From the NCBI GenBank assembly GCA_964448295.1, contig CAYUVV010000001.1:23838-87837 (forward strand): a stretch of 64,000 bases of DNA, read 5' to 3'. Positions 1-56,023 of this stretch are shown here, piece after piece. The position numbers and the translations under genes were made by a program. The DNA is from an uncultured Candidatus Saccharibacteria bacterium (GTDB lineage Bacteria > Patescibacteriota > Minisyncoccia > Phycocordibacterales > JACOZG01). The first letter of the stretch is position 1. Each line of letters begins with the position of its first letter. The notes below the pieces were generated by a model. It saw only the letters and a program-made list of their open reading frames with translations, did no database searches and had not been told where the DNA came from.

Positions 1-98
1 ATCTTTCGTCGGGTGGTTGGGGCCGCCAAAACAGGCGAGCAGACTCTCACCGGGGCCATCAATCAAGCTCACAACGACCTTGAACGCTTGTTGCCAAA

Positions 99-509
99 AT
101 GATTAAAAAACTACCTGTCTTTATTCTGGCCCTGACCGTGTTGAGCGGCGTCGCTTTTTTACCCGCATTAGCGGTTGGCCAAACCAATCCTTTGCCCGAG
201 GGGATTGTGCCTAGATGTACTGATGGCGTGTGCCATTTCAACGACCTGCTTAAACTTATCGGCAATATTTTTACTTTTTTGGTGCGGGTGATTGCTGTGC
301 CGGTGGCTGTTCTTTCTATCACTTACGCCGGCTGGTTGTATATCTCTAAGCCAACGGACTTAAGCGCGCGTAGCAAGGCCCGAGATATTTTGCTCGCCGC
401 CGTCGTTGGTTTGGCCATTACTCTCGCGAGTTGGCTCATCGTCCGGACGATCATCGTCGCCCTCACCGGCGACGAGGCAAGCCCCTACCTCCGCTTTTTC
501 GGGAGTTAG
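99..509 (+). CDS. TrbC/VirB2-type (T4SS-like) pilin-like small membrane protein, paralog 1 of 5
   Basis: 136-aa ORF with an N-terminal signal peptide (MIKKLPVFILALTVLSGVAFLPALAVGQ) followed by two long hydrophobic helices. The same architecture recurs in the next four ORFs. Confidence 0.5.
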   Translation: MIKKLPVFILALTVLSGVAFLPALAVGQTNPLPEGIVPRCTDGVCHFNDLLKLIGNIFTFLVRVIAVPVAVLSITYAGWLYISKPTDLSARSKARDILLAAVVGLAITLASWLIVRTIIVALTGDEASPYLRFFGS

Positions 510-541
510 GTCTATAATGTGGAATGTAGTAAGTATCAAAT

Positions 542-907
542 ATGATTAAATTGGCTCAAAAGACGTTAGCCCAAACTAATTTACCGAGCGTTGTTCCAGA
601 CCGCGGTACCAATTTGCCGACTAACGTCCCGGTAGACAAGCTCAATAATCCGCTAGGCGACGTTGATACTATTTACGAATTTCTGCTGGTTATTCTCAAT
701 CTCGTTGTTCAAATCGGGACGCCGGTGATTGTGCTCGCCGTAATTTATTCCGGCTTTTTGTTTGTGCGCGCGCAAGGTAATCCGTCCAAGCTTGACGAAG
801 CCAAGCAGGCGCTACTCTACACAGCGATCGGCGCGGCGATTGTTTTGGGCGCTTACACCATTACCACCGTGATTGAACGAACAGTCACCGGCCTCGGCGC
901 CGGTTAA
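542..907 (+). CDS. TrbC/VirB2-type pilin-like small membrane protein, paralog 2
   Basis: 121 aa, with a leader followed by two hydrophobic helices (LLVILNLVVQIGTPVIVLAVIYSGFLFV ... LLYTAIGAAIVLGAYTI). Tandem with paralogs 1 and 3-5. Confidence 0.5.
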   Translation: MIKLAQKTLAQTNLPSVVPDRGTNLPTNVPVDKLNNPLGDVDTIYEFLLVILNLVVQIGTPVIVLAVIYSGFLFVRAQGNPSKLDEAKQALLYTAIGAAIVLGAYTITTVIERTVTGLGAG

Positions 908-934
908 GGTTTAAACAATCTAATCAAACAAATT

Positions 935-1330
935 ATGAAACAAAAAAATCGCCTAATTTTAGGATTTATACTTTTTGTCGTTCTGGCTGTTTTTTCCATG
1001 TCAACCGATAATGTTGTCGCTCAATCACGCACGAATAGCTCTGGAGATTTTTCCGCGCTGATTGACCAAATAATAACGGTTGTCGTCGTCCCTTTGATAA
1101 CTTTAATTTGGGCTTTATCCCTGCTTTATTTTTTGTGGAACGCGGTAAAATATTTACAAAGCGGCATGAATGATGGTGATCGGGAAGAAATTAGAAAATC
1201 GTTAGGCTATAGTGTTTTGGCCTTGTTTGTGATGACTGCTGTCTGGGGGTTAGTGAGAGTAATTGACAACACCCTAGATTTAGATTCATCTGTTATCGAA
1301 ACTCCAAAATTGCTCCAATATCAAAGGTAA
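935..1330 (+). CDS. TrbC/VirB2-type pilin-like small membrane protein, paralog 3
   Basis: 131 aa, with a signal peptide (MKQKNRLILGFILFVVLAVFSMS) and two TM helices. It shares a motif with paralog 4 (WNAVKYL / WELVSYL ... VWGLVRV). Confidence 0.5.
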   Translation: MKQKNRLILGFILFVVLAVFSMSTDNVVAQSRTNSSGDFSALIDQIITVVVVPLITLIWALSLLYFLWNAVKYLQSGMNDGDREEIRKSLGYSVLALFVMTAVWGLVRVIDNTLDLDSSVIETPKLLQYQR

Positions 1331-1421
1331 CATTTTCCCCAGTCATAGTTTCGTTCCGACGCTTTCAGCGGTAGAATGAGCGCAATCAGTCGTTTAGATT
1401 AAAAGTTTAGTTTTGTAATTT

Positions 1422-1778
1422 ATGTTCAAAAAATTGTTGTTTCTAACGCCAGTTGGCATTCTGTTCGCGCCGGCAATGGTGGGAGCGCAGGGTGATGTAC
1501 AGGGCATCCTTCGGACTATAATGAATCTACTCAACACCCTGGTGCCGATTATTATGGCGCTGGCGATTATTTACTTTTTGTGGGAGCTCGTCAGCTATTT
1601 GTCTAAACAAGGTGATGAGGGAGAAAGAAAGGAACATCGGCAGAAAATGATTTTTGCCATTATCACTTTGGCGGTGATGGTCGGTGTTTGGGGTTTGGTG
1701 CGCGTGGTGCTTAATACTTTCCAAATTCAGCCAGGTGGTTCACCTCTACCTACACCCGGTTTGCCAGTAGCGCGTTAA
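1422..1778 (+). CDS. TrbC/VirB2-type pilin-like small membrane protein, paralog 4
   Basis: 118 aa, with a signal peptide and two TM helices, and a VWGLVRVV motif shared with paralog 3. Confidence 0.5.
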   Translation: MFKKLLFLTPVGILFAPAMVGAQGDVQGILRTIMNLLNTLVPIIMALAIIYFLWELVSYLSKQGDEGERKEHRQKMIFAIITLAVMVGVWGLVRVVLNTFQIQPGGSPLPTPGLPVAR

Positions 1779-1790
1779 TTTCCCTCTCCG

Positions 1791-2039
1791 GTGCCCATTC
1801 CGCTTCTTGATGCGGTCGTCGCAAAGATTGTAAATCCGGTCATCACCCTTATCGGGGCGCTGGCTGTGGTTTACTTTCTTTGGGGACTCTTCCAGATGAT
1901 CGTGAACGCCGAGAGCGAGGAAGCGCGAGCGACGGGCCGCCGCCACGCCTTTTACGGGTTAATCGGCCTCTTCATTATTGTCGCCGTTTTCGGCATCATC
2001 AACGCCATCCAGGCGACGGTGGATAGTTTGGCCGGTTAA
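1791..2039 (+). CDS. Short two-TM paralog of the pilin-like family, with no signal peptide and a GTG start
   Basis: 82 aa. The two hydrophobic helices (VITLIGALAVVYFLWGLF ... LIGLFIIVAVFGII) resemble the mature part of paralogs 1-4. Confidence 0.4.
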   Translation: MPIPLLDAVVAKIVNPVITLIGALAVVYFLWGLFQMIVNAESEEARATGRRHAFYGLIGLFIIVAVFGIINAIQATVDSLAG

Positions 2040-2130
2040 AGTTTTGATTTTGGCAAAACGAACCCCCATGCGGCCGCGCGGCGACCGAATGGGGGTTTCC
2101 GTTGTTAATTCAAATTAACCTCCTTTCTGG

Positions 2131-2736
2131 CTAATCCTTTCCTACCCAAGTTGTCCCCAAACGAGGATCTTGCCAACGAACCAAAAAGGTCGCCTGGGAG
2201 ATCCCCGCCGGGTTCTGCGGAACTCGACACCGGAGATAGAAATCCTCTCTGGTCGGTTCCGTGCCTGCGGGTAGAGGCACGAGGCCGGTTTTATCCTCCG
2301 GCCACTTGATCCAAGTCCAGGGCTTGGAACGTGCCGTTTGGCACTCGATGGGCCCGCCTTCCGCGAAGAAACCAACAACCGCTCTGGGACTATCGAGGCA
2401 GGAGAGAGCAAATCTCTCACCCCACTCTTTTCCCACAAAAATTTCTTCTTGTTGTGGGGACGAGTTTCGGTTTGGCCGAAATTGAGAGACGGGGCCGTAC
2501 ATGACGGTCTCGGTCGTTTTCTTGCCGCCGATGAATCCCTTAATGGTTTCTAGGTGGTTACTGGCCGCCCAAGCGATTACCACTACCGCTGTTAGACCGA
2601 GGAGCCACCAACCATATCTGCCGACTTTCACTTTCGGCCAGTCGATTTTTTTTTCTCTTTTTCTCAGCGCGAGCGCGAAAACGAACAATACGATAACGCT
2701 CGCGATTAACAGTTGTGTTTCCGGACTCAGAGACAT
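2131..2736 (-). CDS. Hypothetical membrane protein, abutting the SPFH gene (possibly translationally coupled)
   Basis: 201-aa ORF with two N-terminal TM helices. Its start directly abuts the stop of the upstream SPFH-like gene. Confidence 0.5.
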   Translation of the reverse strand: MSLSPETQLLIASVIVLFVFALALRKREKKIDWPKVKVGRYGWWLLGLTAVVVIAWAASNHLETIKGFIGGKKTTETVMYGPVSQFRPNRNSSPQQEEIFVGKEWGERFALSCLDSPRAVVGFFAEGGPIECQTARSKPWTWIKWPEDKTGLVPLPAGTEPTREDFYLRCRVPQNPAGISQATFLVRWQDPRLGTTWVGKD

Positions 2737-4083
2737 TTATTTACCACCTCCTTTCGTTTTGTCTGGGTTAACCAGCACCGCCGGTGCTTCTGAGCGACCG
2801 CCGAATCGGCCTAGAAACAGCGTGGTTGCGGCTGTGTTGTTTTTCATCGCTTCCGGCAAAGCTTGGTTCTCTAGGTAGCACCTTAGAGCCTCAGCTAGTT
2901 GATCATTTGGTATCCCCTCTTCTTTAAACACCCTGATAATCTCTTTCAATCTCTCGCTTTCACCTTGGCCTGTATTCCTTAAGACCTGTCTGTCTCCCTC
3001 CGATTTAGCGACATCCCCTTCAGCCGTTAATATTGCCAGCTGTTTGGCTTGCACCGCTTTTTCAAGATCCTTGGTAGCCTCATCGGCTTGGGATTCGACC
3101 ACTTCGACACTTTCTATCACGACTCCAAAAGTCTCGAGTAGACCTTTTTCGTCAATGAACCTGGTGTCTTTTGATCCGTCAGTGGGCTCCTTGCCTACGA
3201 GCTTACACAGATATTCATAACACTCTCCATTATCTCGTAAGGTTTTGAAATAATTAACGCCGACGTTGATTTTTCGCAGAGCCTTCTCTAGGGGCGAACC
3301 TCTGCCTCGGGCTGTTTCCAGCCATGTTGCCAGAGTTAGGGGTTGGCCGTTTATTCGACATTCCGCAAAGTAGTTAGATACCGCCGCTTGAACTGCTCGA
3401 TCGAGAGAACGAAGAAACTCCTTGCCCTTGAAAGTATAAGCCGCAACCGTCGGCCTAACTACCAGGTAAATCACCTGTAGAAGTAGGTCAATTTTGGAGT
3501 TATCCCTCATCTCGATCGCTTCTACGAGAACAAACCGTACAATCTTTCTCCGGAGCGAGAGAACAACATTATCTCGCTCGTCAGACTTTCTGTAAAGCTT
3601 GTCTCGTATACGAACGTCCTTTTTCTTTTTGTTTGTATCATCCGGCTTTTCTTCGAGATAGAGTTTATCTATCACGATTCGTCGGACTTTCTTCTGAAAC
3701 CAAAGCCAACCGACGAATCGAATTCTCCATAGCCGCCAGATGATTCTTTGTATCCACCTCGTACCCCAAAGTGTCCCTCTAAACCAGCGTTGTGCCCACT
3801 CTCGTTCCGTTTTTCGTTTGTACTTTTCCGGGTCCTCGTTTTCTCCTTTTTTCCGTTGGCTTACAATCCAGTGATGCCCATCAGGATCAACGTCTTTGGA
3901 CACAACGAATCCTGGCGTATTGGGCCAAATTGCCACCGGAGTTTCTCCGGCTTCCACAATGACTATGTGGTCCCGCTCGGGCTCCGAGAAGATAATTGAC
4001 CTTTTGGCCAACATCGTCATCACAACTACAATCAGCACCGGAATCACCACGAGAGACAAAAACCAGAAAATCACCGCATCCAT
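2737..4083 (-). CDS. SPFH/Band-7 (stomatin/flotillin-like) domain membrane protein
   Basis: 448 aa with an N-terminal TM helix. The C-terminal region (VVIESVEVVESQADEATKDLEKAVQAKQLAILTAEGDVAKSEGD) resembles the SPFH C-terminal segment. No homology search was run. Confidence 0.45.
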   Translation of the reverse strand: MDAVIFWFLSLVVIPVLIVVVMTMLAKRSIIFSEPERDHIVIVEAGETPVAIWPNTPGFVVSKDVDPDGHHWIVSQRKKGENEDPEKYKRKTEREWAQRWFRGTLWGTRWIQRIIWRLWRIRFVGWLWFQKKVRRIVIDKLYLEEKPDDTNKKKKDVRIRDKLYRKSDERDNVVLSLRRKIVRFVLVEAIEMRDNSKIDLLLQVIYLVVRPTVAAYTFKGKEFLRSLDRAVQAAVSNYFAECRINGQPLTLATWLETARGRGSPLEKALRKINVGVNYFKTLRDNGECYEYLCKLVGKEPTDGSKDTRFIDEKGLLETFGVVIESVEVVESQADEATKDLEKAVQAKQLAILTAEGDVAKSEGDRQVLRNTGQGESERLKEIIRVFKEEGIPNDQLAEALRCYLENQALPEAMKNNTAATTLFLGRFGGRSEAPAVLVNPDKTKGGGK

Positions 4084-4228
4084 TGTTGCACCCCTTTCTA
4101 ACCGATGTTTGGGTTCTCGAGTTATTTTGAAGTCAAAGACCTACTCGTTGAGGATTATATCATAATATATAAAAAAAGCAACCCCGGGCCGATTAACTCG
4201 GCGCGGGGTTGTTGATGGGTAATGTTTT

Positions 4229-4762
4229 TCATTCCCACCAGGTTCTGATCTCGAAGTTCTTGGGTTGGCCATCGAGAACTTTGATTTCGATCGCGTGGCT
4301 GCCGTCGGCCCTCGTTTGCGACTTTACCCGATAGCCGGTAAGGCCGGGCGGGTTCGTCCTCACTTCGTACCTTGCCCCCGCCGCCACTGTGAAATGGAGG
4401 CGGTTGCCGGGGCTGACTGATTTCTCGTCTGTTCTTGCGCCGTCCGGCTTGATTCCCGGTCCTGGCTTAGGTTGAGAAACGACGACCCCTTCTTTTGGGA
4501 TTTCAGTCAGGCGTAGAATTTGTTCGTTTGCCAGTGGTGTTGGGCTTTTGTCGGCGACGGGGGGCATCGAGGCAACCACCGGAGCCGTGTTCGACTTGCC
4601 CGCATTCCAAATGATCACGGCCAAAAACATCAATACCAACATTCCTGATGCCCCTATCAACACCGCAGACACCGGATATTTTTCGGTCTCAATCGCCAGC
4701 GCCGGGGCTTGATCAGTTTCCGCTTTCTTGCCCGCTTTGTTCTTTCTGCGTTTTTCTTCCAT
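4229..4762 (-). CDS. Hypothetical membrane-anchored protein
   Basis: 177 aa with a lysine-rich N-terminus, one TM helix and a beta-rich C-terminal domain. Confidence 0.45.
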   Translation of the reverse strand: MEEKRRKNKAGKKAETDQAPALAIETEKYPVSAVLIGASGMLVLMFLAVIIWNAGKSNTAPVVASMPPVADKSPTPLANEQILRLTEIPKEGVVVSQPKPGPGIKPDGARTDEKSVSPGNRLHFTVAAGARYEVRTNPPGLTGYRVKSQTRADGSHAIEIKVLDGQPKNFEIRTWWE

Positions 4763-4780
4763 CGTGCATCTTCCTTTCTT

Positions 4781-5131
4781 TTACATTCCTAGAGTGCTTT
4801 TCGTAAAGTAGATTGCCGCGATTGCTCCGGCGGCGGCGCTGGCGGTCACCACGATTGCCCAGAGCGCGCCTCGGCCGAGGAACCTTCCCCACGTCGGTTT
4901 TGGATAATGCTTGTCAATCGTATCTTTGATGATACGGGCAAGAATGGTTTCCAAAGCCAGAGCTAGCCGCATTCCTTCTCCCGCTCCGTTGAGCGCTCCG
5001 GTGAGTTTCGTCAACGTCTCCGCTAGCGCGTTGACCCTGACCTCTAGGCATTCTCCGCTTTTGGGCCTTGCCTGGCGCTTTCTTGGTGTTTTATGAGCGC
5101 CGTCACCTTCTCTTTTTTCGATTTCTGGCAC
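4781..5131 (-). CDS. Hypothetical protein
   Basis: 116-aa ORF co-directional with downstream genes. It has a hydrophobic C-terminus. Confidence 0.35.
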   Translation of the reverse strand: MPEIEKREGDGAHKTPRKRQARPKSGECLEVRVNALAETLTKLTGALNGAGEGMRLALALETILARIIKDTIDKHYPKPTWGRFLGRGALWAIVVTASAAAGAIAAIYFTKSTLGM

Positions 5132-5217
5132 GTTTTTCCTCCGTTTTTGCGGGTTTGGCTGTCAAGATTCTTTCCACTCTAACATCTAACACACAAGTGT
5201 TTTGTTTGCAAGTCCTG

Positions 5218-5299
5218 TGGGCGAGGTGGGATTTGAACCCACAACCCGTGAGGGATACGGTTCTAAGCCGTACGCGTATGCCAATTCCGCCACTCGCCC
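5218..5299 (-). tRNA. tRNA-Leu(TAG)
   Basis: Manually folded on the reverse complement. Acceptor GGGCGAG/CTCGCCC, anticodon loop CTTAGAA, long variable arm, T-loop TTCAAAT. CCA is not encoded. Confidence 0.85.
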
Positions 5300-5314
5300 G
5301 GATATGCTACCGTG

Positions 5315-5387
5315 TGCCCCGTGAGGGATTCGAACCCCCGACCGTCTGCTTAAGAGGCAGCTGCTCTACCAACTGAGCTAACGAGGC
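5315..5387 (-). tRNA. tRNA-Lys(CTT)
   Basis: Reverse complement folds as GCCTCGT TA GCTCAGTTGGTAGAGC, anticodon loop CTCTTAA, T-arm GGGGG-TTCGAAT-CCCTC, acceptor 3' ACGGGGC. Confidence 0.85.
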
Positions 5388-41800: not shown

Positions 41801-44800
41801 ATGGATAGACAGAGTAGCTCACTTTCTCTCGCCGGCGTCTTTTTGGCTGCCCTTTTGTTTGCTTTAGCGCTATGGGCCGGCACCTACATCCCGATTGATA
41901 GTTTGGTTAGCGGTAGCAATCGTTTGGCGGTTGAGAAACAGTTGGCGCAAGTCGGTGGTGGCCCAACCACGGTTGTCTTGTCGGCCGCCGCGGATGCCGC
42001 CGTCCGCGGCGGCAACTTTCAGACCATAAATTACGGTAGCGGAAACGAGTTGGGAATATATCAAGCGGGTGGCCAGTGGGACATCCAACCCTATCTCCGT
42101 TTTGACCTATCTAATATTTCTGGCAATGTTACTGCCGCTCGTCTGCGTTTTTACATTGTCAATGGCGACGACTCGTCATCGCCCCGTCCGGTGAGCCTTC
42201 TCGCCGTAGACGACAATTCTTGGGATGAGACAAGTTTAAACTGGCAAAATCGGCCCAGCACCGGTTCCGCCCTCGGCTCTTTTGCTTTTGGATCAGAGAC
42301 GAGCACTTTTACCGGCTGGCAGGATGTAACCAATTATGTGTCGGGGAAGGTTGCGGCTGGCGCGGCTTCTTTTGCTCTGCGTCATAGCGCGGGCGGCGAG
42401 TATGCCGGCATTGCTTCTCGTGAGTCTGGGCAGCCGGCCGAACTGGAGGTGACTTATGACTCGACGGTGGTTACGCCGCCCACCACCCGCACGCTTGCCA
42501 CCACGGCTAATCCCAGCGCCGGTGGCACTATCAGCCGCCAACCGAATCAGACGAACTACCCTGACGGGAGCGTCGTCACCCTCACCGCCACTCCCAATCC
42601 GGGCTACCAATTCAATAACTGGTCAGGCGATCTCTCTGGCTCACAAAATCCGGTTTCGGTTCAGCTCACGCAAGACAAAACCGTGACGGCCAATTTTGGA
42701 GTGACGTCGCCGAGCGGTGGGAATAGCGGTTACGATCTAACTTGGTCTACTTATTTTGGCGGTTCAGGCGAAGATACAGTGCGTGACGTGGTTGTCGACG
42801 CTGGCGGTAATGTTTATGTGACCGGGGGTACTGGTTCTAGTAATTTTCCGCTAGTCAACCCTGCCCAACCCGCTTTTGGCGGCAATCATGATGTTTTTGT
42901 CTCCAAATTTGGCGCCAACGGCGCCCTGCTGTGGTCAACCTATCTCGGTGGTCCCGGTTACGATCGAGCTTACGCGGTGGAACTGGACGGCGTCGGTAAC
43001 GTCTATGTGGCCGGCCGGGCGGGTAGCGGTTTTCCGGTGACGTCGGGCGTTTTGCAGGCGACCTTTGCCGGCGATTCCAATGTTAATAATAACTATGGCC
43101 CACAGGATGGCTTTGTTGCTAAGTTTAATTCCAACGGGCAGAAACTGTGGGCAACCTATCTCGGCGGGCCAGACCGCAGTTTTATCCGAGACATTGACGT
43201 GGATTCTTCTGGCAACGTTTACGCTGTTCTTACTGACGTTTCCCAATCAAACGGATACCAAACGACTGGCGCTTATCAAGGAACGGTTGCCGGTGGCGCT
43301 AACGGCTTTATCGCTAAATTGAATTCAGCCGGTACGCAAATCCAGTGGGGAACTTATGTTGGCGGCGCATCGAGTGGTCCCGGGTTTGGCACTCCCTCGA
43401 TCCGGGTGGCAAGCAACGGCGAAGTGGTTGCGATGGGAACAAGCGCTTTTGCTGGTGACCCAGTCAGCAACGGTTTGCGCTCCCATGCCGGCGCTTTGGA
43501 TATGTACGTTTTACGCTTGAGCAGTGATGGCCGGACGCGGCGTTGGTCTACTTATCTTGGCGGGAACGCTGACGAATTTTCGGAAACACATTCATTGGCC
43601 CTTAACAGCGCTGGCGATGTCTATGCTGCTTTTACCACTCGCTCTAGCAATTTGCCCGGGGCGGGCGTTGGTTACCAACTAGCGTTAGGTGGAGTCTCTA
43701 ATACCGGCAATTATAACGGCGACGGTTTTGTCGCTAAATTGTCTGGTAACGGTGGAGTCCTGCTTGCCGCCACTTATCTCGGTGGCAGTTCGGGTGACGG
43801 CCTCGAGGGGGTGGGAGTAGACAGCGCTGGGGGTGTTTATGTAAGTGGGGGAACCTTCTCCGCTGATTTCCCAATTACGAGCGACGCGCGGCAAAATAGC
43901 CGCCGGGGCGAAGCAGATTGGTTTGTCTCTAAACTGACCGGCGATCTATCTTCTCTTGTTTACTCCACTTACCTTGGTGGCACCTCGAACTGTGCGGCAG
44001 CCGGAGACACGGTTTGTGATTATGCCCGTAGCGCCACAGTAAATGCCGGCGGGGATTTTTATGTTGTTGGCCATACTAATTCTAGTAATTTCCCGACGCT
44101 TGGGGCTACGCCAAGTCTTAGTACTAACCCCGCCGGGAGTAATGTCAATACCGGGGCGATTGCCAAATTTTCTACCGGCGGAGTAGTTGTCCCGCCTACG
44201 GATTACACGATTACCGCGTCTGTTAGTGGTGGTAACGGCACAATTAACCCGAGCGGCGTGGTTACTGTTTCGGCTGGCGGCTCGCGCACGTTCACTTTCA
44301 GTCCGGCCACTGGTTTTCAAGTCGGAACAGTGGTGGTTGATGGAGCTACCCTGACGCCCCCGCCTCCCACTTATACCTTTTCCAATGTTTCGAGCGCGCA
44401 CACAATAACAATTAGTTTTTCTCCCGTTGCACCCACCACCCGCACGCTTGCCACCACGGCTAATCCCAGCGCCGGTGGCACTATCAGCCGCCAACCGAAT
44501 CAGACGAACTACCCTGACGGGAGCGTCGTCACCCTCACCGCCACTCCCAATCCGGGCTACCAATTCAATAACTGGTCAGGCGATCTCTCTGGCTCACAAA
44601 ATCCGGTTTCGGTTCAGCTCACGCAAGACAAAACCGTGACGGCCAATTTTGGAGTGGTTCAAGCGGTTCAGCCTCTTTTGTTGCGTTTGGAATTTGATGA
44701 CGATAATGCCGACGGCGTGGCCACCGACTCTTCTTCCTTTGGGAACAACGGGACTTGTGTTGGCGCTGTTTGCCCACGTTACTTGAGTGCGGGGAGCGAG

Positions 44801-47800
44801 GATGGTTCAGGGGCGTACGACTGGGACGGAACGAACGATGTACTTGCTTTGCCGGACAGCCCCAGTCTGCGGCCGACGACCAACCTTTCAATTGCGACCT
44901 GGGTCAGGTTTTCATCTTTGAGCGCCGCGCAAGCAATCGTGAATCGCTGGTCTACCAACGGTTTTGCTTGGAGTTTTGCCACCCACTGGCAGAATCCCCG
45001 AGAGTTTTATTTGGCGCTTGACGGGGACGGCACAGCGCCGGCTGATTATTTTGCCATTTCGGCTGGGGCCAATTTGCAACCCAACACTTGGTACCATTTG
45101 GCCGCAACATTTGACGGTAATTCGGTTATTCTATACAAAAACGGGCAGCCCTTACCGACCACAGTGAGTGGGACGAGGCCCGTTCGGCTCCATACCGGTC
45201 CCTCTACTCCACTTGTTGGTTCGATTGGCGGTACGTCTTTTTTAAACGGTCGCCTTGATCGCACCAGAATTTTTGATAGCGCACTGACGCCGAGCGAGAT
45301 CGCGGTGTTGGCTCAAGTTTCAAACCAAACCGGCGACGTTACGCCGCCGGTGGTGGCCGTTACCGCGCCTGTTTCCGGCGTAACTCTTTCCGGCGTAGTT
45401 AATTTTGCCGCCACCGCCGCTGATGTTGGCGGTAGTATCGCGGGCGTTCGATTTTTGCTTGACGGCATCGCGCTTGGCCAAGAGATTACGACCGCGCCAT
45501 ATGCCACAATTTGGGATAGCGCCACGGTGGCTAACGGCCCCCATCAATTGGTGGCCGAGGCTCGTGATGCGGCGGGTAATTTATCCACTAGCGCTCCCGT
45601 CAATTTCGTCGTTAACAATCAAGCGGTTGGTGCAATCACGATCAATTTAACCGCTTTGCCGGCGAGTGGTGCGGCACCCTTGGCGGTCTTCTTTGATGCC
45701 AGTGGCACGACGTATGGCGGTTCGGCGATTCGGCCTTTTCACGATCTTGACTATCGTTGGGATTTTGGTGATCCGGCGAGCGGTGTTTGGGATACCAACG
45801 GCCAGAGCCGCAATGCTGGTCGGGGCCCACTTAATGCCCACGTCTTTGAACGTCCGGGGACTTATACCGTAACGCTTAGTGTGAGCGACGGCCAAGGGCA
45901 GGTGGCTACCAGACAGTCCATCGTCAACGTTAATGTGCCGACGAGCGGCACTTGTTATTCCACGACTGGTAATTTTAGCGGTTGCCCGACCGGTTTCCAG
46001 CAGGTTACAACGTCGCAGGTTGCGGGCAATGGTTTGTACCGTCGCGGCGAAACGTTTACTCGGGTTGGCAATCTGAGTAATGTCAGCTTGCTTGGTGCAT
46101 TTGGCACTGGTCCGCGGCCACGCCTGGTTTTCACCAGCGCGCCCAGTGCTGTGTCGGCTTCGAATAATGCCCTTATCCACGGCGTGGCGATTGATGGCGG
46201 CGGCTATGCTATCCAGGCTGGTGGGTTGGGCACCGAGCATTTGTTTGTCGTTGATAATGAGATCAAAAATTTCTATAACTACGGTTTGTATAAGGGGCCG
46301 TTCAGTCTGGGGCCGGAGGTTGCTTCACGGTATAACGCGGTGATGGGTAATTGGTTTGACACCGCCAGTTCAAATGAGCACGCTATCAGGACATACATTG
46401 CCAAGTCCTATATAGGCCATAACCGGATTGACGGCAACTATCCCCGCGGGACCAATATCAAATTTGTGGGCACCTTGTGTGCTGATGGCTCCAACGATTA
46501 CAACCTGATCGCGGATAACTATTTCAATCATCGGGAACCGCAGGCCGGCATGTTGGCTATTGGCGCGGGCGACGCTGGTCATATCAACTGCTCCAAGGAT
46601 CTAATAATTGAGCGGAATTATTTTGATAATAAAATTGACGGTTGGCCGAAGGCGGCGATGGGGGCAGGCACCAGGTTCGATAGGGTAACGATTAGGAACA
46701 ATATCGCCCGCGAGATGTCGCACTTTATCAGTAATACCGGCGAGACCGGGGCGTCCTATAGTGATTGGCGCATTTACAACAATCTTTTCTATAACACCAA
46801 CCTATTTCCGAGTGGTTATTATTTCTTGTTGTCTAAGGGCTCGATGCCCGGTTTAGAAGTTAGAAACAACATTGTACAGACCTTTGGCGGTTCCGTGAGG
46901 GCTGGTTTAGAATTGCAAAAGGATGCCCCCGCTACCGTAACCGAGACGAACAATATTTGGTACGGCGATTTTAATCCATTATTTAGGATTGGCGGTACAA
47001 ATTATTCCTTTGCCCAGTGGCAGGCTTTGGGTAAAGGGGCGGGTAGTTTGATACAAAATCCATTTTTAACCAGTCCCGGCAATGGTGATTTTTCCTTGAC
47101 GGCCGCTAGTCCAGCAATTGATCAAGGATTTTCTCTTCGCTCGGTGGCAAACGATTTTCTCGGCAATTACCGCCCGCATGACGGTAATAATTCCGGCACG
47201 GCGGAGTGGGATATCGGACCTTACGAATTTGGCTCGAGTGGTGGCGGCAACCCCAACCCGCCCACCACTACCTACTACACCATTACCGTCAACGCTGGCG
47301 CCAACGGCACAGTTAATCCCGGCACAGCGACGGTGGCCGCCGGCAGTAGTCAAAGTTTTACGATTACGCCGAATGGTGGTTATCAAATAGCCAATGTTTT
47401 AGTTGACGGCCAATCAATGGGGCCAATTACCACCCACACTTTTTCTGGTGTTCAAGCCAACCATAATCTCACTGCCGCTTTCAGTCCGTTTGTTCCGTCT
47501 GATACTACCCCGCCTATTATTTCCAATGTGCGGGCGACGAATATCAGTCAGACCGGCGCGCTTATCACCTGGCAAACCGATGAGCCGGCCCGATCTTTTG
47601 CGGAGTATGGTTTTACCACGGCCTACGGCCAGCAAACAGTAAACACTACGGTTTTGGCCACTAATCATGCCGCCAATTTAAATAATTTGTCTCCCGGGGT
47701 GGTTTATCATTATCGGGCTGTTTCTATCGATGCCTTAGGCAATTTGTCTCGTTCAATCAATTTTGTGTTTCAAACTTTGCCAAGCCCTGTTCCCGATACC

Positions 47801-49081
47801 ACCCCTCCGGGCGCAATTCAGGGTTTGACAGCCGTGATTGGCGGCGCCGGCCTAACATCTTATCTAGTAAGTTGGGCGGCTCCGGCCCAAGACGGTAATG
47901 TTGCAAGCTCTGGCGCGGTTGCTAACTACGACCTTCGTTATTCTCTACAGAATATCACAGAAGCGAATTGGTCTTCTGCTGTTGCGGTAACCGGTGAGCC
48001 GCCACCCGGCATACCGGGCGCCTCACAGGATTACACCTTGGTTGGTTTAACTTCCGGCACGACGTATTATGCCGCTCTTAAATCCACTGATGTGGCCAAC
48101 AATCTCTCGCCGCTATCTAATGTAATCTCTTTTAGAACTTTATCAGATCCGCCGCCTGGTCCCGTCATCCCCGGTGGTGGTCCTGGTGGTCCGCACGACG
48201 CTCGTCCGCCGGTATTTGCCTTGCAGGCGGAAATTACTCCCGGACCAGGACAGGCCGTGCTTACTTGGACTAAGCCGACTGATGCCAATTATGTGCGAAC
48301 GCTTATTGTTCGTAGTGCCAATCCCCTGACAGCTTCTGCTGCCAGCACCCAAAATCCAGAACGTCTCACGGGGACGACGGTGGTGTATGAGGGCGCCGAC
48401 CAGTCATTTACCGATACCGGTTTAACCAACGGGCGTACGTATTATTACGCCATTTATGCCTACGACCAGCGTCGTCAGTTCAATCGTCCACAAATTCTTT
48501 CGACCAAGCCCCTTGCCGGCTCGACGAATCAACAGAATGATCCTACCACCGCGCGCGTGGCGACGACGAATTCTTTTTCGGTGACCGATTCGTGTCGTGT
48601 CGAGTCGGTAGTAACGGCGCCAGTCTCGCTGGTCCGCGGTCCTTTTGGTGTTGGTTTGACTTCGCCAGAAGTGCGTCTTTTGCAGGCGATGCTTGCCACG
48701 GATTCTACGTTATATCCAGAGGGGGTGGTTGATGGTTATTATGGCCCGGCGGTAGTACGCGCCATTCAGCGTTTTCAAGCCCGTGAGGGACTAGTGCGGG
48801 CTGGGACACCAGAGACGACGGGTTATGGACTGGCCGGTCCGCAGACCCGCGCCGCCCTGAATCGGGTTTTGGGCGTTCCCAAAACTGTAACGCGAACGGT
48901 GTGTTCGTCTGGCGCGGTTTCAACAGCTGATGGTATTGGCAACTCCGTTTCCAATCCGACTAACACCGTCGGTGGCGATTTAAATAATTCTAGTAATTTA
49001 GCGGCGTTGCTAATTCGCTTGCGCCTAATTCTGCGTTTATTGCTCGAACGTCTCGGCGCGTTTATCTTCGGTTGGTGGTAA
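41801..49081 (+). CDS. Giant multidomain cell-surface protein (2,426 aa)
   Basis: N-terminal signal/TM, then two identical Listeria-Bacteroides-type repeats, about 10 SBBP beta-propeller repeats, InlB-B-like repeats, a LamG/ConA-like lectin domain, an Ig-like domain, a PKD domain, a right-handed parallel beta-helix, three FN3-like domains and a C-terminal peptidoglycan-binding (PG_binding_1-like) domain. Confidence 0.85.
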   Translation: MDRQSSSLSLAGVFLAALLFALALWAGTYIPIDSLVSGSNRLAVEKQLAQVGGGPTTVVLSAAADAAVRGGNFQTINYGSGNELGIYQAGGQWDIQPYLRFDLSNISGNVTAARLRFYIVNGDDSSSPRPVSLLAVDDNSWDETSLNWQNRPSTGSALGSFAFGSETSTFTGWQDVTNYVSGKVAAGAASFALRHSAGGEYAGIASRESGQPAELEVTYDSTVVTPPTTRTLATTANPSAGGTISRQPNQTNYPDGSVVTLTATPNPGYQFNNWSGDLSGSQNPVSVQLTQDKTVTANFGVTSPSGGNSGYDLTWSTYFGGSGEDTVRDVVVDAGGNVYVTGGTGSSNFPLVNPAQPAFGGNHDVFVSKFGANGALLWSTYLGGPGYDRAYAVELDGVGNVYVAGRAGSGFPVTSGVLQATFAGDSNVNNNYGPQDGFVAKFNSNGQKLWATYLGGPDRSFIRDIDVDSSGNVYAVLTDVSQSNGYQTTGAYQGTVAGGANGFIAKLNSAGTQIQWGTYVGGASSGPGFGTPSIRVASNGEVVAMGTSAFAGDPVSNGLRSHAGALDMYVLRLSSDGRTRRWSTYLGGNADEFSETHSLALNSAGDVYAAFTTRSSNLPGAGVGYQLALGGVSNTGNYNGDGFVAKLSGNGGVLLAATYLGGSSGDGLEGVGVDSAGGVYVSGGTFSADFPITSDARQNSRRGEADWFVSKLTGDLSSLVYSTYLGGTSNCAAAGDTVCDYARSATVNAGGDFYVVGHTNSSNFPTLGATPSLSTNPAGSNVNTGAIAKFSTGGVVVPPTDYTITASVSGGNGTINPSGVVTVSAGGSRTFTFSPATGFQVGTVVVDGATLTPPPPTYTFSNVSSAHTITISFSPVAPTTRTLATTANPSAGGTISRQPNQTNYPDGSVVTLTATPNPGYQFNNWSGDLSGSQNPVSVQLTQDKTVTANFGVVQAVQPLLLRLEFDDDNADGVATDSSSFGNNGTCVGAVCPRYLSAGSEDGSGAYDWDGTNDVLALPDSPSLRPTTNLSIATWVRFSSLSAAQAIVNRWSTNGFAWSFATHWQNPREFYLALDGDGTAPADYFAISAGANLQPNTWYHLAATFDGNSVILYKNGQPLPTTVSGTRPVRLHTGPSTPLVGSIGGTSFLNGRLDRTRIFDSALTPSEIAVLAQVSNQTGDVTPPVVAVTAPVSGVTLSGVVNFAATAADVGGSIAGVRFLLDGIALGQEITTAPYATIWDSATVANGPHQLVAEARDAAGNLSTSAPVNFVVNNQAVGAITINLTALPASGAAPLAVFFDASGTTYGGSAIRPFHDLDYRWDFGDPASGVWDTNGQSRNAGRGPLNAHVFERPGTYTVTLSVSDGQGQVATRQSIVNVNVPTSGTCYSTTGNFSGCPTGFQQVTTSQVAGNGLYRRGETFTRVGNLSNVSLLGAFGTGPRPRLVFTSAPSAVSASNNALIHGVAIDGGGYAIQAGGLGTEHLFVVDNEIKNFYNYGLYKGPFSLGPEVASRYNAVMGNWFDTASSNEHAIRTYIAKSYIGHNRIDGNYPRGTNIKFVGTLCADGSNDYNLIADNYFNHREPQAGMLAIGAGDAGHINCSKDLIIERNYFDNKIDGWPKAAMGAGTRFDRVTIRNNIAREMSHFISNTGETGASYSDWRIYNNLFYNTNLFPSGYYFLLSKGSMPGLEVRNNIVQTFGGSVRAGLELQKDAPATVTETNNIWYGDFNPLFRIGGTNYSFAQWQALGKGAGSLIQNPFLTSPGNGDFSLTAASPAIDQGFSLRSVANDFLGNYRPHDGNNSGTAEWDIGPYEFGSSGGGNPNPPTTTYYTITVNAGANGTVNPGTATVAAGSSQSFTITPNGGYQIANVLVDGQSMGPITTHTFSGVQANHNLTAAFSPFVPSDTTPPIISNVRATNISQTGALITWQTDEPARSFAEYGFTTAYGQQTVNTTVLATNHAANLNNLSPGVVYHYRAVSIDALGNLSRSINFVFQTLPSPVPDTTPPGAIQGLTAVIGGAGLTSYLVSWAAPAQDGNVASSGAVANYDLRYSLQNITEANWSSAVAVTGEPPPGIPGASQDYTLVGLTSGTTYYAALKSTDVANNLSPLSNVISFRTLSDPPPGPVIPGGGPGGPHDARPPVFALQAEITPGPGQAVLTWTKPTDANYVRTLIVRSANPLTASAASTQNPERLTGTTVVYEGADQSFTDTGLTNGRTYYYAIYAYDQRRQFNRPQILSTKPLAGSTNQQNDPTTARVATTNSFSVTDSCRVESVVTAPVSLVRGPFGVGLTSPEVRLLQAMLATDSTLYPEGVVDGYYGPAVVRAIQRFQAREGLVRAGTPETTGYGLAGPQTRAALNRVLGVPKTVTRTVCSSGAVSTADGIGNSVSNPTNTVGGDLNNSSNLAALLIRLRLILRLLLERLGAFIFGWW
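42479..42703 (+). repeat. Exact 225-bp intragenic direct repeat, copy 1
   Basis: Nucleotide-identical to 44432..44656. Flanking bases differ on both sides. Confidence 0.9.
44432..44656 (+). repeat. Exact 225-bp intragenic direct repeat, copy 2
   Basis: Offset of 1953 bp (multiple of 3) from copy 1, so in frame. Antisense spurious ORFs in the track are identical over this span. Confidence 0.9.
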
Positions 49082-53385: not shown

Positions 53386-54265
53386 TCTCTATACCCATCG
53401 AGAGGCCAACACGCGCAAGACCTGGATCTTGATGGGCACGTTTCTGGTGGTGGTTATCGCCCTCGGCTGGCTTTTTAGCGTTGTTTGGCAGAGTCAAACG
53501 ATTTTATATGTGGCGGTAATTTTTGCCGTTTTAACCAATTTTTTTAGCTACTGGTACTCGGATAAATTGGTGATAACGATGACGGGTGCGCGGCCGGCCC
53601 GCCGCGAAGAGTTTTTTGACCTTTACACGATGGTGGAAAACCTTTCGATTACCGCCGGTCTTCCGATGCCTAAAGTTTATGTGGTCAATGACCCATCTCC
53701 CAACGCTTTTGCCACCGGTCGCGACGAAAAGCACGCGGTGGTGGCTGTAACAACCGGCCTGCTTCGGGTTTTGAATCGGACGGAGTTGGAGGGAGTCATC
53801 GCTCACGAACTTTCACATATTGGTAATCGTGATATGTTGGTAGCCACCGTGGCGGTGGTGCTCGCCGGTTTCGTCGCTATTTTGGGCGATATGTTTATCC
53901 GCTCTCGCTTTTTGCCATCGAGTGATAGAGAGGGGGGTCGTGTTGGTGGCGCCTTGGCCGTGGTTGCCTTGTTAGCCGCCATCCTCGCGCCGCTCGGCGC
54001 CACCTTAATCCGCCTAGCCATCTCGCGGCGGCGCGAATTTCTCGCCGACGCATCTGGCGCTTTGCTAACTCGCTATCCAGAGGGTTTGGCGAGCGCTCTG
54101 CAAAAAATTAGCCAAAACGGCCAACCAATGCGCCGAGTCTCCGGTGCCACGGCCCATCTCTTTATCGCCAATCCTTTTGGTCCACGAGCCAGCGCTCTCT
54201 CTGCTTTGTTTATGACTCACCCCCCGGTGGAGAAACGGATCGCCGCCCTGCTCGGTTTGCGTTAA
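53375..54265 (+). CDS. htpX: M48-family zinc metalloprotease HtpX
   Basis: TM helices and the HExxH motif in VIAHELSHIGNRDM. Confidence 0.85.
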   Translation: MTSNLYTHREANTRKTWILMGTFLVVVIALGWLFSVVWQSQTILYVAVIFAVLTNFFSYWYSDKLVITMTGARPARREEFFDLYTMVENLSITAGLPMPKVYVVNDPSPNAFATGRDEKHAVVAVTTGLLRVLNRTELEGVIAHELSHIGNRDMLVATVAVVLAGFVAILGDMFIRSRFLPSSDREGGRVGGALAVVALLAAILAPLGATLIRLAISRRREFLADASGALLTRYPEGLASALQKISQNGQPMRRVSGATAHLFIANPFGPRASALSALFMTHPPVEKRIAALLGLR

Positions 54266-54275
54266 AATAAAAGCG

Positions 54276-54836
54276 ATGGTTTTGACTGACAAGATTTTGG
54301 CAGAAACTTTTCTGCCGATGTTGCCGCGTTACGTTCTGCCCAATCACGTGACGGTTTTCCGTTTTGTGCTCATCCCGATTGTGCTGGTTTTGCTTTATTT
54401 CGATTATCGCTTGCTCGGACTCCTCTTTTTTGCGCTGGCCGCGTTTTCCGATGCCGTTGATGGCGCTTTGGCCCGCACCCGCCATCAGATTACCGAATGG
54501 GGGACGCTCTATGATCCATTAGCGGACAAATTGCTAGTTAGCTCTGTCGCGGCTCTCGTGGTGACGCGGGTTTTCGGTTGGCGTTTGGCTTTGGCGATTA
54601 TCGGGATGGAATTTTTGATTATTCTGGGCGCGCTCTATTACCGTCGGCGTTCAGGCAAAGTAATTTCGGCTCACCCGGCCGCCAAGTTAAAAATGTTCTG
54701 CCAGTCCTGTGGTTTAATCTGCTTGTTCCTGTACCTCCTCTGGCCAGTGCCGGGGCTCCTCCTTGCGTCTTACTATCTTCTCCTTGCGGCTGTTGTTCTG
54801 GCCGTCATCAGTTTTTTCATTTACCAATCAATTTGA
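54276..54836 (+). CDS. CDP-alcohol phosphatidyltransferase (PgsA-like)
   Basis: Signature DAVDGALARTRHQITEWGTLYDPLADK. Confidence 0.8.
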   Translation: MVLTDKILAETFLPMLPRYVLPNHVTVFRFVLIPIVLVLLYFDYRLLGLLFFALAAFSDAVDGALARTRHQITEWGTLYDPLADKLLVSSVAALVVTRVFGWRLALAIIGMEFLIILGALYYRRRSGKVISAHPAAKLKMFCQSCGLICLFLYLLWPVPGLLLASYYLLLAAVVLAVISFFIYQSI

Positions 54837-54867
54837 TTTGCCTCTGATTTGTGGCAAGATAGCGAGC

Positions 54868-54955
54868 GGAGGGTTCGCATAGTGGTCTAGTGCGCTCGCT
54901 TGGAGAGCGAGTATGCTGCAAGGCATCAAGGGTTCGAATCCCTTACCCTCCGCCA
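54868..54955 (+). tRNA. tRNA-Ser(GGA), CCA encoded
   Basis: 88-nt type II tRNA. Acceptor GGAGGGT/ACCCTCC, anticodon loop TTGGAGA, variable-arm hairpin, T-arm AAGGG-TTCGAAT-CCCTT, G-CCA. Confidence 0.85.
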
Positions 54956-55960: not shown

Positions 55961-56023
55961 AATTTGCTATACTTGTTTTGTAGGTAGAGAAGTAAATCTC
56001 TCATAACTCTATACTATCAAAGT

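What the first reader, a model, noticed from the sequence alone, without database searches (positions are those of the whole stretch)
99..2039. Tandem array of five small TrbC/VirB2-type pilin-like paralogs at the contig start
Five consecutive plus-strand ORFs of 82-136 aa share the architecture signal peptide, ~40-60 aa, then two long hydrophobic helices. This is the topology of conjugative-type (VirB2/TrbC) pilins and of the T4SS-type pilin family that is expanded in CPR bacteria. The paralogs are divergent in sequence, with only 3 and 4 sharing motifs. That suggests antigenic or functional diversification of a surface filament subunit, possibly used for host attachment by an episymbiont. 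No VirB4/VirB6/VirD4 genes are present in the window, and the array may continue upstream of position 1.
Basis: partly seen in the sequence, partly recalled or inferred. Interest (0 to 1): 0.5.

Follow-up and report, generated by a model that had tools for sequence, protein, structure and literature searches.

The report
Five-gene VirB2-like pilin operon, Paceibacteria
Five neighbouring small genes encode pilin-like membrane proteins of a kind already described in the tiny host-dependent Patescibacteria; the new points are that the five are old, fixed and distinct from one another, not fast-changing copies, and that they always follow a sugar-binding-type protein gene.

Summary
Five consecutive plus-strand ORFs (99-2039) are real, conserved genes. 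Four pass the Pfam gathering score for PF18895 (T4SS_pilin), and ORF1 falls just below it.

Three details need correcting:
- Only ORFs 1, 3 and 4 have a signal-peptide-like N-terminus.
- The spacer before the first helix is about 10-25 aa, not 40-60.
- An identical contig shows the array does not continue upstream. GyrA, a methyltransferase and a solute-binding protein (SBP) precede it.

This class is already published. Wang 2023 showed an essential pilin series in Southlakia, and Quinonero-Coronel 2025 reported 441 arrays of 2-11 genes.

What I add, from 80 Paceibacteria loci:
- A membrane-anchored, MalE-like SBP gene is followed by pilin-like genes in all 62 testable loci. In 58 of them an array of 4-8 genes (mode 5) starts immediately.
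- Array positions are orthologous across genomes (198 of 210 best hits).
- The pilins evolve at ordinary rates.
- A -10-like box is enriched in a conserved spacer before position 4.

This argues against antigenic diversification and for five specialised subunits. No VirB4 lies within 10 kb upstream or in the 64-kb window, and dependence on a type IV secretion system (T4SS) is inferred, not shown. I rate it a new member of a known kind, of moderate interest.

The parts
1..102 (+). 3' end of the upstream gene for a membrane-anchored MalE-like solute-binding protein (434 aa; the rest lies outside the window, L001:2655-3959). Its TGA overlaps the ORF1 ATG (ATGA at 99-102).
   Evidence: L001 is identical to window 1-5387. 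PF01547 SBP_bac_1, 47 bits. TM helix at residues 6-28 plus a two-lobed SBP fold, pLDDT 93.8. Nearest solved structures are oligosaccharide-binding proteins, E about 1e-21. Followed by pilin-like genes in 62 of 62 testable loci.
99..509 (+). Position 1 pilin-like gene (136 aa): signal-like segment, a conserved Cys...Cys motif (C40, C45) just before helix 1, then a two-helix hairpin.
   Evidence: PF18895 23.5 bits, below the cut-off of 26.6. 92.7 bits against the lineage profile. 42 of 42 best non-self hits are position 1 of another genome, and all position-1 orthologs have at least 2 Cys. Alignment.
542..907 (+). Position 2 pilin-like gene (121 aa): hydrophilic 43-aa leader with no signal-like segment, an 'NPL' motif, then the hairpin with a conserved GN..L..AK.A loop.
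   Evidence: PF18895 40.4 bits; TrbC 23.8 bits, below its cut-off. 42 of 42 positional orthology. The missing signal segment is shared with the closest relative L003, while most other orthologs have one.
935..1330 (+). Position 3 pilin-like gene (131 aa): signal-like segment, hairpin with a YFLW motif, about 20-aa C-terminal tail.
   Evidence: PF18895 29.7 bits. 35 of 42 best non-self hits are position 3 elsewhere. 35% identical to ORF4.
1331..1421 (+). Conserved long AT-rich spacer between positions 3 and 4, with a -10-like TAGAAT (1372-1377) and CAGTCGT (1388-1393). Candidate internal promoter or 5' leader for positions 4-5.
   Evidence: Median gap between positions 3 and 4 is 108 nt, against 8-21 nt for the other gaps. 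TAnAAT in 29 of 32 spacers, against 16.5 +/- 2.6 (max 24) in shuffles. Box plus GTCG[TA] in 8, against 0.7 (max 4). No unusual RNA structure, z = -0.28.
1422..1778 (+). Position 4 pilin-like gene (118 aa): signal-like segment, hairpin, proline-rich C-terminal tail.
   Evidence: PF18895 35.0 bits. NF045849 40.3 bits against a cut-off of 40. AlphaFold2 model with helices 26-61 and 66-99, pLDDT 76.8. 38 of 42 positional orthology.
1791..2039 (+). Position 5 pilin-like gene (82 aa, GTG start): bare hairpin with no signal-like segment.
   Evidence: PF18895 35.2 bits. 41 of 42 positional orthology. About 80 aa with only two hydrophobic segments in 37 of 42 genomes. 79% identical to the L003 ortholog.

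Best explanation
The region is a complete five-gene operon of VirB2-like 'T4SS_pilin' (PF18895) proteins in a Patescibacteria (class Paceibacteria) chromosome. It is probably co-transcribed with the upstream methyltransferase and membrane-anchored MalE-like SBP genes.

Each product is a two-helix membrane hairpin. The basic inter-helix loop faces the cytoplasm and both ends face outward. Three of the five reach the membrane with a signal-peptide-like segment and two without one.

The five are not interchangeable variants. They are five ancient orthologous groups held in fixed order, in two subfamilies (positions 1-2 and positions 3-5). The most likely reading is that they are distinct structural subunits of one envelope-associated assembly: a pilus-like or conduit structure built with the Patescibacteria T4SS, whose genes lie elsewhere in the genome. 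Positions 4-5 may be expressed separately from an internal promoter.

Shown here: family membership, topology features, completeness of the array, positional orthology, the SBP linkage, and enrichment of a -10-like box in the spacer.

Inferred, not shown: polymerisation, dependence on VirB4, any role for the SBP, and which subunit is the major one.
For: - Pfam PF18895 passes for ORFs 2-5 and is near-threshold for ORF1. NF045849 passes marginally for ORF4. All 286 database homologs found carry PF18895.
- Hydropathy and the AlphaFold2 model show a helical hairpin. The loop is richer in K+R than the flanks.
- The array is complete at five.
- SBP orthologs in 80 Paceibacteria loci are followed directly by 4-8 pilin-like genes, mode 5, in 58 of 62 testable loci. 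The other four have pilin-like genes a little further downstream.
- 198 of 210 proteins have their best non-self hit at the same position in another genome. The length pattern and the lack of a signal segment at position 5 are conserved.
- Evolutionary rates are ordinary compared with the neighbouring genes.
- In Southlakia, six PF18895 genes next to VirB6/VirB4 are each scored essential (PMC10633639). That fits non-redundant roles.
- Of 11 related genomes that appear in the published survey, 8 have VirB4 (PMC12102498).
Against: - No VirB4, TrsD, PrgI/VirB3 or VirB6 lies within the 64-kb window plus 3.9 kb upstream, or within +/-10 kb in related loci.
- Three of the 11 related genomes are listed as lacking VirB4.
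- Other Paceibacteria carry a separate single PF18895 gene right beside VirB4, so the array need not be the T4SS pilin.
- TrbC/VirB2 (PF04956) is only sub-threshold.
- A profile search of PDB sequences and two fold searches gave no specific match to solved conjugative pilins.
- No heteropolymeric VirB2 pilus is known (my own knowledge of the field).
- Tn-seq essentiality of small tandem genes can reflect polar effects.
Confidence: 0.6

Rival explanations
1. Antigenic or host-range diversification. The five genes are interchangeable variants of one major pilin, amplified and diversified to evade recognition or to fit different host strains. This is the first reader's view and the analogy drawn in PMC12102498 with Bartonella and Anaplasma VirB2 paralogs.
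For: Low identity within the array, 22-35%, matching the published mean of 25%. The N- and C-terminal extensions, which would be surface-exposed, differ most between paralogs. Position 2 is the fastest-evolving member, 52% identical to the L003 ortholog.
Against: Positional orthology in 198 of 210 proteins, across genomes whose SBPs are only 30-42% identical. Mean similarity at the same position across genomes is at least equal to the similarity between paralogs within a genome for positions 1, 2 and 5. Array size is stable, with a mode of 5 in 38 of 62 loci. Pilin identities to L003 (52-79%) bracket those of the neighbouring SBP and methyltransferase (74-78%). They are far above the adjacent SPFH-like gene at 40%.
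Confidence: 0.12
2. A VirB4-independent membrane module. The SBP and the five two-helix proteins (ten helices in all) form a self-contained envelope complex, for example a glycan-sensing or uptake device, or a docking device. It would share ancestry with VirB2 but would not need a T4SS.
For: SBP and array are linked in all 62 testable loci, with overlapping or near-abutting stop and start codons. No cognate ABC permease or ATPase lies next to the SBP. The SBP has a confident oligosaccharide-binding-type fold and many invariant aromatic residues. There are no T4SS genes within +/-10 kb. Three of 11 operon-bearing genomes are listed without VirB4. A separate VirB4-adjacent PF18895 gene exists in other Paceibacteria.
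Against: In Saccharimonadia and Microgenomatia, PF18895 arrays sit inside or near VirB4 clusters with no SBP. GyrA and the methyltransferase are just as syntenic, so the linkage may partly reflect conserved gene order. The three 'No VirB4' genomes are draft MAGs, and 8 of 11 is about the survey's overall rate. No precedent is known.
Confidence: 0.18
3. Unrelated small membrane proteins (holin-like, stress or transporter-accessory proteins) that hit the pilin HMM only because of hydrophobic composition, or spurious ORFs.
For: Several weak hits to unrelated membrane families. Fold searches are non-specific for a helical hairpin. JGI automatic names for some homologs are unrelated membrane proteins.
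Against: Four of five exceed the curated PF18895 cut-off, and that family is the top hit for all five. Conserved motifs lie outside the hydrophobic cores: the Cys pair, NPL, the GN..AK loop and YFLW. The genes are conserved in about 80 genomes. Homologs in Southlakia sit inside the T4SS cluster.
Confidence: 0.05

Closest known systems
VirB2-like pilin arrays of Patescibacteria: Southlakia epibionticum SEML1_0014-0019 (Wang et al. 2023, PMC10633639) and the survey of 441 arrays (Quinonero-Coronel et al. 2025, PMC12102498)
   Same: Same Pfam family (PF18895). Tandem same-strand array of 2-11 small genes. Low identity between paralogs, about 25%. Chromosomal location in a Patescibacteria genome. 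Similar sizes and hairpin architecture.
   Different: Here the array is not in or near a virB4 cluster. It is fused into an operon-like unit with a methyltransferase and a membrane-anchored MalE-like SBP, which is absent from the Southlakia cluster. The SBP is not mentioned in the survey's main text. Positional orthology and the fixed number of five are not described there. The survey says arrays are most abundant in Microgenomatia and Saccharimonadia, whereas this lineage is Paceibacteria.
TrbC/VirB2 conjugative pilins of diderm T4SS (Pfam PF04956; Agrobacterium VirB2, RP4 TrbC, F TraA)
   Same: Small protein with a leader, then two hydrophobic helices joined by a basic cytoplasmic loop. Weak HMM similarity (ORF2 E = 5e-5). 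Some family members hit both PF18895 and PF04956.
   Different: Below the PF04956 cut-off. No detectable similarity to solved pilins by sequence profile or fold search. Five distinct conserved subunits, where diderm systems have one major pilin. The host is monoderm. Two members lack any leader. No adjacent VirB machinery.
Amplified VirB2 paralogs of Bartonella Trw and Anaplasma (as cited in PMC12102498)
   Same: Several tandem VirB2-family genes in one genome.
   Different: Those arrays are interpreted as lineage-specific amplifications for variation. Here the copies are ancient and positionally orthologous, and they evolve at ordinary rates.
Major plus minor (pseudo)pilin sets of type IV pili and type II secretion (analogy only, from my own knowledge)
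   Same: A fixed small set of distinct, conserved, non-interchangeable subunits encoded together. The separately promoted positions 4-5 could correspond to abundant subunits.
   Different: Unrelated fold and family. T4P pilins have a single N-terminal helix plus a globular head and are processed by PilD. No homology is claimed.
Mbov_0395 / MMCAP2_0565 pilin-like conjugal transfer protein of Mycoplasma ICEs (NCBIfam NF045849)
   Same: ORF4 reaches the family cut-off (40.3 against 40), and ORFs 3 and 5 hit at E of 4e-6 to 2e-7. It is also a wall-less or monoderm MPF-FATA-type context.
   Different: That protein is a single gene in a mobile element. Here there is a five-gene chromosomal set, and only one member is marginally at threshold.

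Membership tests
Pfam PF18895 T4SS_pilin (Patescibacteria VirB2-like pilins) | HMM score at or above the gathering cut-off (26.6 bits) | tested here: met
   ORF2 40.4, ORF3 29.7, ORF4 35.0 and ORF5 35.2 bits. ORF1 scores 23.5 bits, just below, but PF18895 is its top hit. ORF1 is tied to ORF2 by BLAST (42 bits) and to the family by the lineage profile (92.7 bits).
Pfam PF18895 T4SS_pilin (Patescibacteria VirB2-like pilins) | Two-helix membrane hairpin with a charged connecting loop | tested here: met
   Hydropathy segments. AlphaFold2 helices 26-61 and 66-99 in ORF4. Loop K+R of 2.7-4.0, against 0.8-1.3 before helix 1.
Pfam PF18895 T4SS_pilin (Patescibacteria VirB2-like pilins) | Encoded with or near T4SS machinery (VirB4, TrsD, PrgI/VirB3, VirB6) | tested here: not met
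   None in the 64-kb window, in the 3.9 kb upstream, or within +/-10 kb in 80 related loci. The published survey also finds about 40% of pilin-bearing assemblies with pilin genes away from virB4, so this is not disqualifying.
Pfam PF18895 T4SS_pilin (Patescibacteria VirB2-like pilins) | A T4SS (VirB4) is present somewhere in the same genome | not testable with these tools
   The rest of the source genome (a 257,657-bp contig and others) could not be fetched. Of 11 related genomes in the survey's Table S1, 8 have VirB4 and 3 do not.
Pfam PF04956 TrbC/VirB2 pilin | HMM score at or above the gathering cut-off (27.9 bits) | tested here: not met
   Best is ORF2 at 23.8 bits. ORF3 scores 13.8 and ORF1 12.1. 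ORFs 4 and 5 have no hit.
Pfam PF04956 TrbC/VirB2 pilin | Structural match to solved conjugative pilins (F TraA, T-pilus VirB2 and others) | tested here: inconclusive
Pfam PF04956 TrbC/VirB2 pilin | Cleavable leader peptide preceding the mature pilin | tested here: inconclusive
   Signal-like N-terminal segments in ORFs 1, 3 and 4 only, with A-x-A-like sites (ALA-VGQ, VVA-QS, VGA-QG) seen by eye. ORFs 2 and 5 lack them. No signal-peptide predictor was available.
Pfam PF04956 TrbC/VirB2 pilin | Polymerises into an extracellular pilus | not testable with these tools
   Needs microscopy or biochemistry. No such filament has yet been shown for any Patescibacteria T4SS (PMC12857230).
NCBIfam NF045849 Mbov_0395 family pilin-like conjugal transfer protein | HMM score at or above the cut-off (40 bits) | tested here: inconclusive
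   ORF4 scores 40.3, right at the cut-off. ORF5 scores 30.7, ORF3 26.3, ORF2 19.9 and ORF1 10.4, all below it.
Variation-type VirB2 paralog arrays (Bartonella Trw / Anaplasma model) | Lineage-specific amplification: paralogs closer to each other than to genes in other genomes, with fast divergence | tested here: not met
   Only 9 of 210 proteins have their best hit to a paralog in their own genome. 198 of 210 hit the same position in another genome. Rates are comparable to those of neighbouring genes.
SBP-dependent ABC importer (for the upstream SBP) | Permease and ATPase genes adjacent to the SBP gene | tested here: not met
   The conserved neighbours are an MBL-like protein, GyrA, a methyltransferase, the pilin array, an SPFH-like protein, RbfA and IF-2. 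No permease or ATPase cluster was found. Some neighbour identities were read from the sequences by eye.

The most novel reading that the evidence does not exclude
In Paceibacteria, the membrane-anchored oligosaccharide-binding-type SBP and the five fixed VirB2-like subunits form one conserved surface module. The SBP would act as a glycan-recognising receptor, adhesin or gate, coupled to a heteromeric VirB2-type filament or channel. The module might work apart from the VirB4-adjacent pilin. That would make it the first multi-subunit VirB2-family assembly and the first SBP-coupled one.
Probability: 0.15. Interest if true: 0.75.

Novelty: new member of a known kind. Interest (0 to 1): 0.35.

Why it matters
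The T4SS-like system and its pilin series are essential in the one genetically tractable Patescibacteria species, and their function is unknown (PMC10633639, PMC11665869, PMC12857230).

If the paralogs are five ancient, position-fixed subunits, the question changes. It is no longer which variant is used on which host, but what role each subunit plays in one assembly. That can be tested with single-gene depletion and with structure prediction of complexes.

The invariant pairing with a sugar-binding-type protein in Paceibacteria gives a concrete candidate for how such an assembly might recognise a host surface or a substrate. The array itself, however, is an expected feature of these genomes.

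Tried and rejected
- A single-protein search of the large protein database with ORF4 found only itself and one relative. The word index is too insensitive for these short divergent proteins. A 114-sequence alignment was needed and gave 286 hits.
- A profile search of PDB sequences found nothing significant.
- Consensus promoter and terminator scans of the operon were at chance level.
- RNA folding of the position 3-4 spacer was unremarkable, z = -0.28, so I dropped the idea of a structured RNA element there.
- The survey's Table S3 is truncated in the held copy, so gene-index distances between VirB4 and the arrays in Yonathbacteria could not be read.
- NCBIfam gave no specific identity for the methyltransferase or the SBP. 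A literature search for any SBP-VirB2 link in Patescibacteria returned nothing.
- I considered that ORF2's missing signal segment was a frameshift or assembly error. I rejected this because the closest relative L003 shares it.
- I considered that the array continues upstream. I rejected this using L001.
Full report
**1. What is in the sequence**

Five consecutive plus-strand ORFs lie at 99-509 (136 aa), 542-907 (121), 935-1330 (131), 1422-1778 (118) and 1791-2039 (82 aa, GTG start). The overlapping minus-strand ORFs are short and have no support.

- ORF2 40.4 bits, ORF3 29.7, ORF4 35.0 and ORF5 35.2, all above the gathering score of 26.6.
- ORF1 scores 23.5, just below it.

TrbC/VirB2 (PF04956) appears only below threshold, with ORF2 best at 23.8 bits against a cut-off of 27.9. 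NCBIfam NF045849, a pilin-like conjugal transfer protein of Mycoplasma ICEs, is reached by ORF4 (40.3 against 40) and hit more weakly by the others.

The paralogs are 22-35% identical to each other. A profile built from them finds no further copy anywhere in the 64-kb window.

**2.

- **Signal peptides.** Hydropathy shows an N-terminal signal-peptide-like segment only in ORFs 1, 3 and 4. ORF2 has a hydrophilic 43-aa leader, and ORF5 begins directly at the first helix.
- **Spacer length.** The spacer between the signal-like segment and helix 1 is about 10-25 aa, not 40-60.
- **Fold.** An AlphaFold2 model of ORF4 (62-sequence alignment, pLDDT 76.8) shows a signal helix followed by a long hairpin, with helices at 26-61 and 66-99.
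- **Topology.** Across 42 arrays the inter-helix loop carries more K+R (2.7-4.0) than the region before helix 1 (0.8-1.3). This fits a cytoplasmic loop with both termini outside.
- **Upstream extent.** The array does not continue upstream. A Logan contig, L001, is identical to window 1-5387 and adds 3.9 kb. That stretch encodes GyrA, a 174-aa class I methyltransferase and a 434-aa SBP_bac_1 protein whose stop overlaps the ORF1 start.

**3. Genomic setting**

The window is ordinary chromosome. It carries IF-2, a cysteine-desulfurase-type aminotransferase, SOD, ClpB, PheS, MiaA, RNase III, SMC, RNase R, TrmD, a ribosomal-protein region, RNase J, GroEL and seven tRNAs. No ORF of VirB4 or VirD4 size is left unassigned.

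Related loci come from Patescibacteria MAGs named Yonath-, Vogel-, Nomura-, Giovannoni-, Taga- and Niyogibacteria, and Paceibacterota. Ten of the eleven that appear in a published table are GTDB class Paceibacteria.

**4. What is already known**

The class is published:
- Wang et al. [quoted passage not shown] Their tables list SEML1_0014-0019 as six PF18895 genes, each scored essential.
- Quinonero-Coronel et al. 2025 (PMC12102498) searched 3,035 genomes with PF04956 and PF18895. They report 441 arrays of 2-11 genes in 383 assemblies, with a mean identity of 25% within arrays. By analogy with Bartonella and Anaplasma, they suggest the variety may aid adaptation to different hosts.
- A 2025 review calls the possible pilus of a monoderm T4SS an open question.

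**5. What the comparison adds**

I used the upstream SBP as the query against one genome per species. It returned 80 loci at 27-74% identity.

*SBP-array linkage.* In 58 of 62 loci with more than 2.5 kb of downstream sequence, an array of 4-8 pilin-like ORFs (mode 5, in 38 loci) begins within tens of bases of the SBP stop, on the same strand. The other four loci also have pilin-like genes downstream, at larger offsets.

*Conserved block.* The conserved order is an MBL-like gene, GyrA, the methyltransferase, the SBP and the array. An SPFH-like gene, RbfA and IF-2 then follow on the opposite strand. No T4SS-sized conserved neighbour lies within +/-10 kb.

*Positional orthology.* Among 42 five-member arrays, 198 of 210 proteins have their best non-self hit at the same position in another genome, and only 9 hit a paralog in their own genome. 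Positions 1-2 form one subfamily and positions 3-5 another.

*Position-specific traits are conserved:*
- Position 1 has a Cys...Cys motif before helix 1; all 42 orthologs have at least 2 Cys.
- Position 2 has an NPL motif and a GN..L..AK.A loop.
- Position 5 is an ~80-aa bare hairpin without a signal segment in 37 of 42 genomes.

*Signal loss at position 2.* Only the window and its closest relative L003 share the loss of the signal segment at position 2, so it is a lineage trait and not an error.

*Evolutionary rate.* Identity to L003 is as follows:

| Gene | Identity to L003 |
|---|---|
| GyrA | 87% |
| Methyltransferase | 78% |
| SBP | 74% |
| Pilin position 1 | 76% |
| Pilin position 2 | 52% |
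| Pilin position 3 | 62% |
| Pilin position 4 | 66% |
| Pilin position 5 | 79% |
| Adjacent SPFH-like gene | 40% |

Taken together, these results contradict recent amplification or hypervariation. They point to five long-standing, non-interchangeable subunits. The individual essentiality of the six Southlakia genes fits this reading, although polar effects in Tn-seq are a caveat.

**6. Operon details**

Gaps between array genes are short, with medians of 13, 8.5 and 21 nt. The exception is the gap between positions 3 and 4, with a median of 108 nt (91 nt in the window).

That spacer is AT-rich. It contains a -10-like TAnAAT box in 29 of 32 cases, against 16.5 +/- 2.6 (max 24) in dinucleotide shuffles. 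The box followed by GTCG[TA] occurs in 8 cases, against 0.7 (max 4). In the window these are TAGAAT at 1372-1377 and CAGTCGT at 1388-1393.

This suggests an internal promoter for positions 4-5, which might therefore be the abundant subunits. That is an inference. The generic promoter scan and the RNA folding were uninformative.

**7. The SBP partner**

It has an N-terminal transmembrane anchor and no lipobox. The two-lobed SBP fold is predicted with high confidence (pLDDT 93.8).

Its nearest solved structures are all oligosaccharide-binding proteins: cyclo/maltodextrin, manno-oligosaccharide, beta-1,2-gluco-oligosaccharide, and sucrose or trehalose binders (E about 1e-21, TM 0.7-0.8). The family alignment has many invariant aromatic residues. 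No ABC permease or ATPase is adjacent.

Sources name its homologs only 'extracellular solute-binding protein'. I found no paper linking an SBP to VirB2-like genes in Patescibacteria, and the Southlakia cluster has no SBP.

Whether the linkage is functional or only conserved gene order is open, because GyrA and the methyltransferase are equally syntenic.

**8. Relation to a T4SS**

This is the weakest link.
- Nothing T4SS-like is nearby.
- Among 11 operon-bearing genomes listed in the survey, 8 have VirB4 and 3 do not. The three without it are 0.68-0.96-Mb drafts, and 8 of 11 is about the survey-wide rate.
- In other Paceibacteria, a single PF18895 gene sits two genes from VirB4-TrsD-PrgI. The five-gene array could therefore be a second pilin locus.
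- Sequence-profile and fold searches against solved structures cannot confirm a VirB2 fold, because a helical hairpin matches thousands of proteins.

**9. Verdict**

The family assignment is supported. The antigenic-diversification idea is not. The array is complete at five.

The best explanation (confidence about 0.6) is a set of five specialised VirB2-like membrane hairpin subunits. They would be co-expressed with a glycan-binding-type SBP and serve the Patescibacteria T4SS-like envelope apparatus encoded elsewhere.

The main rival (about 0.18) is a VirB4-independent module made of the SBP and the hairpin proteins.

Novelty: a new member of a known kind, with two features not previously described, namely positional orthology and the SBP linkage. 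Interest is moderate.

Noticed in passing
window 54868-55960 and 54000-62000: tRNA-Ser(gga) abuts a minus-strand ORF (54926-55960) that has Recombinase and Zn-ribbon domains but no N-terminal resolvase domain. GC content falls from about 0.53 to 0.43-0.47 over the next ~7 kb. This may be a remnant of an element integrated at the tRNA.
   Followed up: no
window 41801-49081: A 2,426-aa protein with CBM96, InlB B-repeat, LamG, PKD, fn3/purple-acid-phosphatase-N and peptidoglycan-binding domains. It looks like a giant surface or adhesin-type protein.
   Followed up: no
window 1331-1421 and the equivalent spacers in L003-L082: A conserved ~100-nt AT-rich spacer lies between array positions 3 and 4. 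It is enriched for a -10-like TAnAAT box, and in a subset the box is followed by an AGTCGT/A motif 33-55 nt before the start codon of position 4.
   Followed up: partly
L001:2134-2658 (just upstream of the window) and the orthologs in 79 loci: A 174-aa class I SAM methyltransferase with no specific family assignment always sits immediately upstream of the SBP gene. In this genome its stop overlaps the SBP start. Its substrate is unknown, and a link to the pilin-like proteins is only a guess.
   Followed up: partly
window 2737-4083 (minus strand): A 448-aa membrane protein with a weak SPFH/Band 7 hit converges on the array. It is syntenic in at least 22 loci but only 40% identical to its L003 ortholog, so it evolves far faster than its neighbours.
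   Followed up: no
proteins P0096-P0105 (database hits, not in the window): Proteins of 209-262 aa score about 180-208 bits against the pilin profile, roughly double a single domain. They are probably fused double pilins in other Patescibacteria.
   Followed up: no
window 542-907 and L003:9872-10300: The position-2 protein has lost the N-terminal hydrophobic signal-like segment in this genome and in its closest relative, while most orthologs keep it. How the 43-aa hydrophilic N-terminus would cross the membrane is unclear.
   Followed up: partly
L024:3011-3607 and the orthologs about 8.7 kb upstream of the SBP in 19 loci: A signal peptidase I-like gene, recognised by eye from the SGQSM...GDNR motifs, is syntenic upstream of the block. 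This is probably coincidental housekeeping synteny.
   Followed up: no
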